Source: Escherichia coli (GTDB lineage: Bacteria; Pseudomonadota; Gammaproteobacteria; Enterobacterales; Enterobacteriaceae). Taken from it: a stretch of 598 nucleotides of DNA. Positions 1 through 598 of the stretch are shown here, one piece after another. The translations under genes were made by a program, and so were the position numbers. The notes under the pieces are model-generated. The model had not been told where the DNA came from. It saw only the letters and a program-made list of their open reading frames with translations, and made no database searches. The stretch lies in assembly GCF_003334255.1 (NCBI RefSeq), contig NZ_QOWU01000213.1; one strand, 5' to 3'. Position 1 is the stretch's first letter; the number at the start of each line of letters is the position of its first letter.

Positions 1-237
1 AAAAAAGGCGTTACGGACTTTCAGGGGAAGTAGTGGTCTGGTGACTGGAAATATGTACCGAAAAAAGAGGATTGTAACGACAGGCCGAACTATGAAATTC
101 AGGCCTTATTCACTGCCCCGCCAGTCCCGGTTACATCAGAAGAACTGGTTAAAGCTGTGCACTTTTATGAACAACTAAAACGCGAAAATCCACCAGCATC
201 CGGAAACCTGATTACAGATTCCCAGATAAGGCAATGA
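1..237 (+). pseudogene. 3' part of a protein-coding frame (frame 1) of unknown product, interrupted by an in-frame amber codon (TAG 31-33), ending at TGA 235-237
   Basis: Frame 1 is open from the window edge to 237 except for a single TAG at 31-33. It translates as KKGVTDFQGK*WSGDWKYVPKKEDCNDRPNYEIQALFTAPPVPVTSEELVKAVHFYEQLKRENPPASGNLITDSQIRQ*. The composition is balanced and protein-like, with about 31% G at codon position 1 and frequent CCG, CTG, AAA and GAA codons. There is no in-frame ATG between 34 and 237, and the only in-frame GTG (157-159) would give 26 aa. Frame 2 is also open from 2 to 175, but its translation has no Asp or Glu, is Arg/Lys-rich, and has only about 11% G at codon position 1, so it looks like an out-of-frame shadow. 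Whether the upstream gene simply ends at 33 or the whole stretch is a nonsense-disrupted gene cannot be settled from this window. Confidence 0.4.
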
Positions 238-307
238 GCTACCTGGCGCAGAACGGGCTGATAAGTATGGGGAATGTTTTACGATGAATATTTAGACTAA
301 AGAGTTT

Positions 308-322
308 GTAACGCTATGTAAG
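308..322 (+). promoter_or_regulatory. tandem direct repeat GTAAC-N5-GTAAG (10-bp periodicity), candidate response-regulator binding site
   Basis: Seen directly: GTAAC (308-312), spacer GCTAT, GTAAG (318-322), each half preceded by T. This resembles tandem half-sites of OmpR/PhoB-family regulators, for example the CpxR consensus GTAAA-N5-GTAAA, with 4 of 5 matches in each half. It lies about 85-100 bp upstream of the ATG at 408. It is a motif resemblance only and could arise by chance in AT-rich DNA. Confidence 0.2.
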
Positions 323-397
323 TGATTTTTTCTGGTTTAGATATTTATATGTCCGGCCAAACTGAGGTGTGTTTAAATGTAATTGCACATTGATTGT

Positions 398-403
398 AGG
401 AGG
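398..403 (+). promoter_or_regulatory. Shine-Dalgarno sequence (AGGAGG) for the downstream small ORF
   Basis: A perfect AGGAGG at 398-403 is followed by a 4-nt spacer (AATA) and ATG at 408-410. The in-frame GTG at 369 used by the supplied ORF track has only GAGG directly abutting it (364-367, 1-nt spacer), which is a poor geometry. Confidence 0.7.
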
Positions 404-407
404 AATA

Positions 408-587
408 ATGAAAAACGCATTGCAGTTTTTGTTTGTTGCGTTCTGGTTGTTCGTATCATGTATGCCCATCATCTTCACAGCAAGGTATATGGAAAAAGTT
501 GATGTTTTGATATTAATATTTGGATATATAAATGCCCTTTTTTTAGGGGTGTTCATGGCGGTCATGTGCATTGAATACTGGCGGTAA
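408..587 (+). CDS. small hydrophobic membrane protein, 59 aa, two predicted transmembrane helices, function unknown
   Basis: ATG 408 to TAA 585-587 encodes MKNALQFLFVAFWLFVSCMPIIFTARYMEKVDVLILIFGYINALFLGVFMAVMCIEYWR. There are two hydrophobic stretches (about residues 4-25 and 33-55) separated by a short charged loop RYMEKVD, with a short C-terminal EYWR. A strong SD sits upstream. GC is about 37% with rare codons (ATA x3, TTA, AGG, CGG, GGA). The supplied 72-aa ORF from GTG 369 is the same frame with an N-terminal extension that I consider unlikely. Confidence 0.7.
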   Translation: MKNALQFLFVAFWLFVSCMPIIFTARYMEKVDVLILIFGYINALFLGVFMAVMCIEYWR

Positions 588-598
588 ATACAGCGAAC

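What the first reader, a model, noticed from the sequence alone, without database searches (positions are those of the whole stretch)
288..407. Sharp compositional shift: AT-rich intergenic region and small gene versus upstream gene
By direct count, GC is about 45% for 1-237, about 32% for 288-407 and about 37% for 408-587. The AT-rich block contains repeated TTTAGA (291-296, 336-341) and ATATTTA (288-294, 341-347) motifs and several TGTAA motifs. This is typical of horizontally acquired, xenogeneically silenced (H-NS-type) DNA in enteric-like genomes, or of a recombination junction.
Basis: seen in the sequence. Interest (0 to 1): 0.3.

Follow-up and report, generated by a model that had tools for sequence, protein, structure and literature searches.

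The report
Prophage mosaic cassette with unannotated small gene
The AT-rich block is a swappable cassette in an E. coli lambda-like prophage that carries a real but unannotated 59-codon membrane-protein gene; this is ordinary phage mosaicism, and its low GC comes mostly from non-coding DNA followed by a very hydrophobic protein.

Summary
GC is 44.7% (1-237), 31.7% (288-407) and 36.7% (408-587), and every motif coordinate is right. The shift is only modestly significant. The repeated TTTAGA and ATATTTA motifs are what chance gives.

The window lies in the nin region of an E. coli lambdoid prophage, between the replication genes and hokD/Q.
- Bases 1-287 are the decayed 3' end of a phage gene of unknown function (phrog_660). 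In intact alleles its stop codon is at 285-287.
- Position 287/288 is an exact mosaic junction. A related prophage has the same upstream gene and the same hok/sok locus but a different insert.
- The cassette runs from 288 to about 629. It occurs in 1568 of 5426 complete E. coli genomes at 96.5% identity or more.
- It holds a 120-bp leader ending in AGGAGG and a 59-codon ORF (408-587).

The ORF is a real gene. A 41%-identical paralogue of the same length, without indels, occurs in 1045 genomes, also next to hok sequence (pN 0.34, pS 0.70).

The ORF's GC3 is host-like (0.51). Its low GC therefore reflects hydrophobic amino acids rather than foreign base composition.

H-NS silencing could not be tested. 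The protein's function is unknown; a small inner-membrane hairpin made from the early-right phage transcript is the best guess.

The parts
1..287 (+). 3' part of a decayed nin-region phage gene of unknown function (phrog_660 family). It has an internal TAG at 31-33 and a deletion with frameshift near 203/204. The last segment (about 225-287) is back in the ancestral frame and ends at TGA 285-287.
   Evidence: PGAP marks it 'frameshifted; internal stop'. The intact 171-aa allele, L010 1013-1528, ends at the base equivalent to window 287. It hits phrog_660 at E 2e-74.
197..207 (.). Breakpoint and indel zone inside the upstream gene. Related alleles carry 57 bp or about 150 bp more here. The module to its left (1-197) occurs elsewhere with other 3' ends.
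   Evidence: Partial matches end at 196/197 or start at 201-218. Alignment A1. mEp460 and phage-plasmid contexts.
287..288 (.). Left mosaic junction of the cassette, directly after the upstream gene's stop codon (GATGA|ATATTT here, GATGA|CCTGG in the alternative allele).
   Evidence: Alignments with L006.
288..407 (+). AT-rich non-coding leader of the cassette (31.7% GC), ending in the Shine-Dalgarno sequence AGGAGG at 398-403, four bases before the ATG. No consensus sigma-70 promoter and no stable or unusual RNA fold were found.
   Evidence: Promoter scan. RNA fold z-score +0.5. Rfam gives only chance-level hits. 13 of 120 sites vary among 18 haplotypes.
408..587 (+). ORF59: a 59-codon gene (ATG 408, TAA 585-587) for a very hydrophobic small protein with two predicted helices. 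It is not annotated in the RefSeq records examined.
   Evidence: ORF list. A 59-aa paralogue at 41% identity aligns without indels. pS 0.70 against pN 0.34, and codon-position identities of 0.58, 0.71 and 0.47. 6 of 180 sites vary, against 19 of 173 in the flanks, p 0.006. All 87 sampled copies are intact. AF2 gives helices 2-24 and 31-58 at pLDDT 72.
314..571 (-). Antisense 85-codon ORF, annotated 'hornerin' in two phage records. Judged spurious.
   Evidence: The same frame has 2 stops in the paralogue, and pS is about equal to pN. No family hit.
588..598 (+). Start of the cassette's 3' tail. The tail continues past the window to the right junction, at about window-equivalent 629/630 (L001 12629/12630). 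There the hok promoter and hok/sok locus begin.
   Evidence: Homology with L006 resumes at GGA(C/T)AAAAACGGTTTGCGGG. Rfam sok RF01794 matches L001 12677-12848 at 106.7 bits, and the hokD CDS is at 12846-13001.
332..361 (+). Left copy of an imperfect direct repeat of about 30 nt. Its partner lies at window-equivalent 603-636, beyond the window, so the two copies bracket ORF59.
   Evidence: family D1. Local alignment score 25 against a shuffle mean of 15.1 (sd 2.5); 0.5% of shuffles reach it. Absent from the paralogous locus.

Best explanation
The AT-rich block is a cassette of about 340 bp (window 288 to about 629) in the nin region of an E. coli lambdoid prophage. It sits between the stop codon of a decaying phage gene and the promoter of the hok/sok locus. 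Related prophages carry other DNA in this slot, so 287/288 is a true mosaic (recombination) junction.

The cassette consists of a non-coding leader with a strong ribosome-binding site and a genuine 59-codon gene. The gene encodes a small, very hydrophobic protein, most likely a two-helix inner-membrane hairpin.

The GC drop has two ordinary causes. One is the change from coding to non-coding DNA at the stop codon. The other is a protein rich in Phe, Ile, Leu, Met, Val and Tyr, whose codons are AT-rich at positions 1 and 2.

Inferred, not shown: the gene points the same way as the early-right operon (cro to Q), and no promoter or terminator was found around it. It is therefore probably transcribed as a delayed-early phage gene on induction. 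What the protein does in the membrane is unknown.
For: Location: an exact match in a prophage ordered int-xis-exo ... cro, replication genes, window, hokD, rusA, Q, lysis genes. The same DNA is in three phage records.

Junctions: L006 shares the upstream gene up to GATGA and shares the sequence from GGAYAAAAACGG onward. In between it carries a 27-codon ORF instead of the cassette.

Distribution: 1568 of 5426 genomes, all at 96.5% identity or more.

The gene is real:
- AGGAGG lies 4 nt before the ATG.
- A paralogue of identical length occurs in 1045 of 5426 genomes, also followed by hok sequence.
- pN/pS is 0.34/0.70, the alignment has no gaps, and codon position 3 is the least conserved.
- The ORF has 3.3% variable sites against 11% in its flanks.
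- A 1-nt insertion in L010 breaks the alternative 72-codon GTG start but leaves ATG 408 in frame.

Composition: the ORF's GC1/2/3 are 0.34/0.27/0.51 against 0.60/0.40/0.525 for host genes. Expected GC with host codon usage is 0.418; observed is 0.373.

Expression context: no promoter-like site on the + strand and no terminator between L001 11500 and 13070.
Against: There is no direct evidence of transcription or translation. PGAP never calls the gene.

Within the window-type clade all six ORF polymorphisms are non-synonymous, although conservative. Purifying selection is therefore shown only by the comparison between clades and by the lower site diversity.

The 80 viral loci were selected by a protein match, so the '87 of 87 intact' count is biased. 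Rare frameshifted alleles do exist (P0015, P0032, P0034 and P0036).

About 4.5 GC points of the ORF's deficit, and the leader's place at the low end of prophage intergenic regions, are not explained by amino-acid composition. A lower-GC source cannot be excluded.

Homology of the leader between the two clades is not statistically demonstrable.
Confidence: 0.8

Rival explanations
1. Xenogeneic island silenced by H-NS. On this reading the block came from a lower-GC donor. Its AT-richness recruits H-NS, which keeps ORF59 and any spurious promoters off in the lysogen.
For: At 31.7-36.7% GC the block is far below the host's roughly 51%. The paralogous Rac-remnant stretch is 33.6% GC over 1.2 kb. 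That H-NS prefers AT-rich, TpA-rich DNA is established knowledge. IS2 insertions fall inside the cassette in two strains, and H-NS-bound regions are reported as transposition hot spots (abstract of PMC11335895, seen).
Against: No binding data exist for this DNA. The ORF's GC3 is host-like and most of its deficit comes from amino-acid composition. The leader lies within the host intergenic range. A block of about 340 bp is short for a silenced island. The two clades differ by about dS 2 yet both reside in E. coli phages, so this is not a recent import.
Confidence: 0.3
2. Autonomous moron. On this reading the cassette is an independent transcription unit with its own, non-consensus promoter in the AT-rich leader. 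It is expressed in the lysogen and benefits the host, for example by excluding other phages.
For: It sits between features that are adjacent in a related prophage and has a different base composition, which are the classic marks of a moron. The ORF is intact in IS-ridden prophage remnants that have lost upstream phage genes (L005 and L007). The paralogue persists in a minimal Rac remnant in 1045 genomes. The neighbouring hokD is very highly expressed in an LF82 lysogen (PMC9928086).
Against: No sigma-70-like promoter was found upstream of either paralogue, and no terminator follows either. The gene is co-oriented with the early operon. Persistence in remnants may be hitch-hiking.
Confidence: 0.25
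3. ORF59 is not a gene. On this reading 288-629 is non-coding spacer or a regulatory leader of the hok/sok locus, and the ORF is a chance open frame in T-rich DNA.
For: PGAP never calls it. There is no Pfam, NCBIfam, PHROG or PADLOC match. All within-clade substitutions are non-synonymous. It always adjoins hok.
Against: The frame is the same length and free of gaps across 59% nucleotide identity. pS is more than twice pN. All five other frames show stops or pS no greater than about pN. A canonical SD is present. The fold has no RNA-structure signal. The Rfam sok model starts 90 nt after the ORF ends.
Confidence: 0.05
4. Variant of the protein model. On this reading ORF59 is a small lipoprotein, with its signal peptide cut before the invariant Cys18, in the manner of the phage lipoproteins Cor, Llp and Rz1. 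It would not be a two-pass hairpin.
For: S17-C18 is invariant in both clades. LF(A/V)SC and IVISC fit a PROSITE-style lipobox, with K/R at residues 2-3; the motif was checked by eye and the rule recalled from memory.
Against: The mature 42-residue part would still contain a 23-residue hydrophobic helix, which is unusual for a lipoprotein. No signal-peptide predictor could be run. AF2 simply gives two helices.
Confidence: 0.15

Closest known systems
Mosaic modules and morons of lambdoid phages (HK97/HK022 comparisons; 'The moron comes of age', PMC3594210)
   Same: An extra DNA segment lies exactly between a stop codon and the next functional unit. It is absent or replaced in a related phage, and its base composition differs from its neighbours. 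It carries a small accessory gene that is not needed for the phage cycle.
   Different: No promoter or terminator of its own could be found. The gene is co-oriented with the early operon, so it may be an ordinary nin-region gene rather than an autonomous unit.
nin region of phage lambda and P22 (ninA-ninI: short, dispensable ORFs between replication genes and Q)
   Same: Same genomic position and orientation. The ORFs are short and tightly packed, many have unknown function, and exchange between phages is heavy.
   Different: ORF59 matches no PHROG family, and so no nin protein family represented there. It is a membrane protein. It sits next to a hok/sok locus, which lambda lacks.
Small hydrophobic prophage and type I toxin proteins (Hok/Gef family; HokD is the next gene)
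   Same: Under 60 aa, very hydrophobic, prophage-borne, and adjacent to a hok locus in both clades.
   Different: Two predicted helices rather than one. No sequence similarity to Hok. No antisense RNA or mok-like leader was detected. Toxicity is untested.
H-NS-bound AT-rich horizontally acquired DNA in Enterobacteria
   Same: The GC is 14-19 points below the host average and the DNA lies inside a mobile element.
   Different: The block is short. Its AT-richness is largely explained by non-coding DNA plus amino-acid composition. No binding data exist.

Membership tests
Phage moron | Lies between two features that are adjacent in a related phage | tested here: met
   L006 has the same upstream gene and the same hok/sok locus, with only a 27-codon ORF between them.
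Phage moron | Base composition differs from the flanking phage genes | tested here: met
   35% GC for 288-598 against 48.3% for the prophage and 50.3% for neighbouring phage CDS. The ORF's GC3 is nevertheless host-like.
Phage moron | Own promoter and own terminator (an autonomous transcription unit expressed in the lysogen) | tested here: inconclusive
   The consensus scans find none upstream or downstream of either paralogue. Weak or non-sigma-70 promoters cannot be excluded, and no RNA data are available.
H-NS xenogeneically silenced DNA | AT content clearly above the host genome average | tested here: met
   31.7-36.7% GC against 50.8% for host CDS.
H-NS xenogeneically silenced DNA | H-NS occupancy, and derepression in an hns mutant | not testable with these tools
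   No ChIP or expression data are available for a carrier strain. The K-12 Rac right end and the K-12 Qin hokD region lack this DNA.
Type I toxin-antitoxin (Hok-like) toxin | Single-TM peptide with a cis-encoded antisense RNA and a structured leader | tested here: not met
   Two helices are predicted. No Rfam antitoxin or leader match falls in 288-629. The leader fold is no better than shuffles.
Class II holin / pinholin | Two TM segments, located in the lysis cassette upstream of the endolysin, with a charged C-terminal tail | tested here: not met
   The gene is in the nin region, 8 kb upstream of the annotated holin and lysozyme. The C-terminus is only EYWR. There is no PHROG holin hit.
Bacterial lipoprotein | Lipobox with an invariant Cys after a short, positively charged hydrophobic signal | tested here: inconclusive
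   The motif is present and Cys18 is invariant. No predictor or experiment was available, and a second hydrophobic helix follows.
Protein-coding gene (as opposed to a chance ORF) | The frame is conserved between diverged copies, with an excess of synonymous change | tested here: met
   59 codons in both copies, no gaps, pS 0.70 against pN 0.34. The other five frames fail this test.

The most novel reading that the evidence does not exclude
ORF59 and its paralogue would form a previously unrecognised family of small membrane proteins in E. coli and Shigella prophages, missing from RefSeq annotation and functionally tied to the adjacent hok/sok locus. It might modulate Hok action or membrane state during induction, or act in superinfection exclusion or abortive infection. 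It would be kept under selection even in minimal prophage remnants.
Probability: 0.12. Interest if true: 0.55.

Novelty: new member of a known kind. Interest (0 to 1): 0.28.

Why it matters
As a compositional signal this is a textbook case.

The case is also a caution. Low GC in a short ORF can come from hydrophobic amino acids alone, since GC3 here is host-like. It should not be read as proof of foreign origin or of H-NS silencing.

The modest practical point is an annotation gap. A conserved 59-codon gene is present in 29% of complete E. coli genomes, and its paralogue in 19%. In every RefSeq record examined neither is called, while two phage records annotate the wrong strand. Small prophage membrane proteins are a class in which exclusion, toxicity and lysis-timing functions keep turning up, so the family is a reasonable candidate for a small-protein screen.

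Tried and rejected
- Family and library searches with ORF59 and its paralogue found nothing. Libraries tried: NCBIfam, PHROGs, PADLOC and Pfam. A tblastn against 50,697 phage records gave only the three near-identical phages.
- Rfam at a permissive threshold finds nothing credible in the window. The sok model starts at window-equivalent 677.
- RNA folds of the leader and the tail are no better than shuffles, so an RNA-element reading was dropped.
- The promoter and terminator scans give no + strand promoter before either paralogue.
- I tested whether the leader is a degenerate copy of the 27-codon ORF of the alternative allele. The similarity is not significant; 93% of shuffles score as well.
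- I tested whether the leader is homologous between the two clades. This is also not significant. Only the ORF and the hok piece are demonstrably shared.
- The repeated TTTAGA and ATATTTA motifs are at chance level.
- The antisense 'hornerin' ORF is rejected.
- The K-12 Rac right end and Qin hokD region were fetched in the hope of using K-12 data sets. BLAST found neither paralogue at the Rac right end. At Qin, relE lies directly upstream of hokD; that locus was not BLAST-searched.
- LF82 transcriptome tables (PMC9928086) were checked for expression upstream of hokD. No gene is called there, so no value could be read.
- One call failed because I gave a pseudogene for translation.
- Not run: fold search (a two-helix hairpin would give meaningless matches) and the costly genome contigs and metagenome scans (three protein-database searches had already shown the family confined to E. 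coli and Shigella).

Full report
**1. The observation**

The window was read in full and the counts were repeated.
- GC is 44.7% for 1-237, 31.7% for 288-407 and 36.7% for 408-587.
- TTTAGA is at 291 and 336, ATATTTA at 288 and 341, and TGTAA at 307, 317 and 378 (plus 73).

Statistically the shift is real but modest.
- Fisher p is about 0.01 for left against right.
- The best change point is at 258-276, and 5.7% of permutations reach its likelihood ratio.
- The repeated 6-mers and 7-mers are no more frequent than in dinucleotide-preserving shuffles (38% and 47% of shuffles have as many).
- Three TGTAA exceed the shuffles (0.6% reach 3). That motif was picked after the fact and is not kept in the paralogous locus.

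**2. Where the window is**

It is identical to DNA in many E. coli chromosomes and 99.5% identical to two E. coli phage records.

In strain MCJCHV-1 (locus L001, window = 12001-12598) it lies in a lambdoid prophage next to potC. The gene order is integrase, excisionase, exonuclease, dicB, repressor, cro, replication genes, several small genes, the window, hokD, DUF968, rusA, Q antiterminator, tRNAs and the lysis genes. This is the nin region of the early-right operon, and every gene from cro to Q is on the window's + strand.

**3. Anatomy**

- Bases 1-287 are the 3' part of a gene that PGAP marks 'frameshifted; internal stop'.
  - The intact 171-aa allele (L010 1013-1528) ends with TGA at the position equivalent to window 285-287.
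  - It belongs to phrog_660, of unknown function.
  - The window copy has a TAG at 31-33 and a deletion with frameshift near 203/204.
- Bases 288-407 are non-coding and end in AGGAGG (398-403), four bases before an ATG.
- Bases 408-587 are a 59-codon ORF.
- After the window come about 40 more bases of cassette. Then come the hok promoter region and the hok/sok locus: Rfam sok at 106.7 bits over L001 12677-12848, and the hokD CDS at 12846-13001.

**4. The junction**

A related prophage (L006, strain G5) has the same upstream gene, aligned through its last codons and the stop (…TTTTA[C/A]GATGA). It also has the same sequence from GGA[C/T]AAAAACGGTTTGCGGG into hok/sok.

Between those points it has about 80 bp holding a 27-codon ORF that starts at the ATGA overlap. 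It does not have the roughly 340-bp AT-rich block.

So 287/288 is a mosaic junction to the base, and the right junction is at about window-equivalent 629/630.

A second breakpoint zone lies inside the upstream gene at about 197-207.
- Related alleles carry 57 bp or about 150 bp more there.
- The module to its left recurs at 84-90% identity in phage mEp460, in phage-plasmids and in other prophages, with different 3' ends.

Distribution:
- The cassette (query 260-598) is in 1568 of 5426 complete E. coli genomes, always at 96.5% identity or more. For the whole window, up to three places are found per genome.
- It occurs in intact-looking prophages and in IS-ridden Qin-like remnants.

**5. Is the small ORF a gene?**

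An exhaustive HMMER search of 1.84 billion representative proteins found, besides near-identical copies, a 59-residue protein at 41% identity aligned end to end (P0037/P0043).

Its DNA is in 1045 of 5426 E. coli genomes. It lies in a tiny Rac-prophage remnant beside ttcA. Like the window copy it is unannotated. It sits in low-GC DNA and is followed by a hok fragment (score 64 against a shuffle mean of 18).

Between the two copies:
- The reading frame has the same start, stop and length, with no gaps, at 59% nucleotide identity.
- Codon-position identities are 0.58, 0.71 and 0.47.
- pS is 0.70 against pN 0.34, a ratio of about 0.23 after correction.
- All other frames have stops in at least one copy. 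That includes the antisense 85-codon ORF that two phage records call 'hornerin', which has two stops in the paralogue.

Within the window-type clade:
- The ORF has 6 variable sites in 180, against 19 in 173 in the leader and tail (p 0.006).
- All six are conservative amino-acid changes and none is synonymous, so within-clade data alone do not show purifying selection.

Other points:
- All 87 sampled copies are intact. The sample was chosen by protein match, and rare frameshifted alleles exist.
- A 1-nt insertion upstream of the ATG in L010 breaks the 72-codon GTG-start version annotated in some GenBank records but leaves ATG 408 intact.

I conclude that ORF59 is a real gene starting at 408.

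**6. What explains the composition**

- The ORF's GC by codon position is 0.34/0.27/0.51. Host genes give 0.60/0.40/0.525 and neighbouring phage genes have a GC3 of 0.45.
- The third position is therefore host-like. The deficit lies in positions 1 and 2, that is, in the amino-acid composition (Phe, Ile, Leu, Met, Val, Tyr, Lys, Asn).
- Written in host codon usage the same protein would be 41.8% GC, against 37.3% observed.
- About two thirds of the 13.5-point gap to host coding DNA is thus accounted for without invoking a foreign source.
- The leader's 31.7% is at the low end of the prophage's intergenic gaps (mean 44%; 1 of 20 as low) but within the range of host intergenic DNA (3 of 11 at 32-33%).
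- The 'shift' is therefore mainly a stop codon followed by non-coding DNA and then a membrane-protein gene.

**7. How it probably works**

Shown:
- a cassette with exact junctions;
- a canonical ribosome-binding site;
- a conserved, very hydrophobic 59-residue product with two predicted helices (2-24 and 31-58; AF2 pLDDT 72; hydropathy);
- invariant residues W13, S17, C18, P20-I21-I22, T24, F38-G39, N42-A43-L44, E56, W58 and R59.

Inferred:
- No promoter-like site precedes either paralogue, and no terminator lies between L001 11500 and the hokD terminator at 13070.
- The gene is co-oriented with cro to Q.
- It is therefore most likely transcribed as part of the early-right transcript after induction.
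- A weak promoter of its own in the AT-rich leader cannot be excluded. That would make the cassette a true moron, expressed in the lysogen.

Still open:
- The product is most simply a hairpin in the inner membrane, with both ends in the cytoplasm. The paralogue's loop is net negative and its N-terminus is MRK.
- The invariant Ser17-Cys18 also fits a lipobox, so a small lipoprotein is an open alternative.
- The function (exclusion, toxicity, lysis timing, or an interplay with Hok) is unknown. No library of known families matches.

**8. H-NS**

The block is AT-rich enough to be a plausible H-NS target. IS2 has inserted into it in two strains. That fits a report that H-NS-bound DNA attracts transposition (PMC11335895, abstract seen).

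This is circumstantial. No occupancy or hns-mutant data could be reached. The K-12 Rac right end lacks this DNA by BLAST. In K-12 Qin, relE lies directly upstream of hokD, where the cassette sits in other prophages. The claim stays untested.

**9. Comparison with what is known, and verdict**

The arrangement is the classic mosaic architecture of lambdoid phages. The cassette meets two of the three moron criteria: it lies between features that are adjacent in a relative, and its composition is deviant. The third criterion, its own promoter and terminator, is not shown. It is not a Hok-like toxin, a holin or a known nin protein by the tests listed.

The finding is a correct observation of an ordinary phenomenon.

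The one mildly new item is the ORF59 family: two clades, confined to E. coli and Shigella prophages, widespread, and missing from RefSeq annotation.

Interest is about 0.28. It is a new member of a known kind.

Noticed in passing
window 408-587; L093 9130-9309: ORF59 and its 41%-identical paralogue are not annotated in any RefSeq (PGAP) record examined. They occur in 1568 and 1045 of 5426 complete E. coli genomes respectively. GenBank submitters call them 'hypothetical' or 'putative membrane protein', often with a 72-codon GTG start that is not conserved.
   Followed up: yes
window 314-571, minus strand: Phage records ON470612 and ON470619 annotate the antisense ORF as 'hornerin'. That frame has two stops in the paralogue and no family match, so the annotation is spurious.
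   Followed up: yes
L006 2935-3018: The alternative allele at the cassette site holds a 27-codon hydrophobic ORF (MTWSEAFTTVGIALAVALVVYSICRWG) that starts at the ATGA overlap with the upstream gene's stop. It has no PHROG match.
   Followed up: partly
L093 8113-9700 (strain CEA601S, beside ttcA): A minimal Rac-type prophage remnant. It consists of an integrase fragment, a DUF1627 fragment, 1.2 kb of unannotated 33.6% GC DNA with the ORF59 paralogue, and a 5'-truncated hok fragment. A frameshifted metal ABC permease, uspF and ompN follow.
   Followed up: partly
window 332-361 and L001 12603-12636: An imperfect direct repeat of about 30 nt (TGGTTTA..GATATTTA.T.TG.CCGG.CAAA) brackets ORF59; 0.5% of shuffles score as well. 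It is absent from the paralogous locus. It could be a trace of how the ORF-bearing segment arrived.
   Followed up: partly
window 293-298 (L005, strain 582); window 560/561 (L096, strain FJ_Ec_21): IS2 is inserted in the AT-rich leader in one strain, with 293-298 present on both sides. In another strain an IS2 fragment truncates the ORF. ISNCY and IS66 elements flank the cassette in Qin-like remnants.
   Followed up: partly
L001 13010-13091: A weak isrK-like Rfam match (27 bits, below the gathering score of 50) lies directly after hokD and ends in the only intrinsic terminator predicted in the region (13070-13087).
   Followed up: no
window 1-197: The N-terminal module of the upstream phrog_660 gene recurs at 84-90% identity in phage mEp460, in 60-90 kb phage-plasmids and in an O111:H8 prophage. 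There it is joined to different 3' ends and different neighbours (DUF551, an exonuclease, PrtN), so the gene is itself a mosaic.
   Followed up: partly
ORF59 residues 13-18 (window 444-461): Ser17-Cys18 is invariant, preceded by hydrophobic residues and by K/R at positions 2-3. This fits a lipobox pattern in both clades.
   Followed up: partly
L001 11993-12006 (around the window start): A run of eight A's lies at the point where the upstream gene's frame is first lost in this strain (L010 reads …YVKKDVTDF…). Homopolymer slippage probably started the gene's decay.
   Followed up: no
plasmid records NZ_CP069920.1 (Klebsiella oxytoca, 9.5 kb) and CP088536.1: The cassette appears at 98.6% identity on very small 'plasmid' records, one of them labelled Klebsiella. 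These may be prophage fragments or assembly artefacts rather than true plasmids.
   Followed up: no
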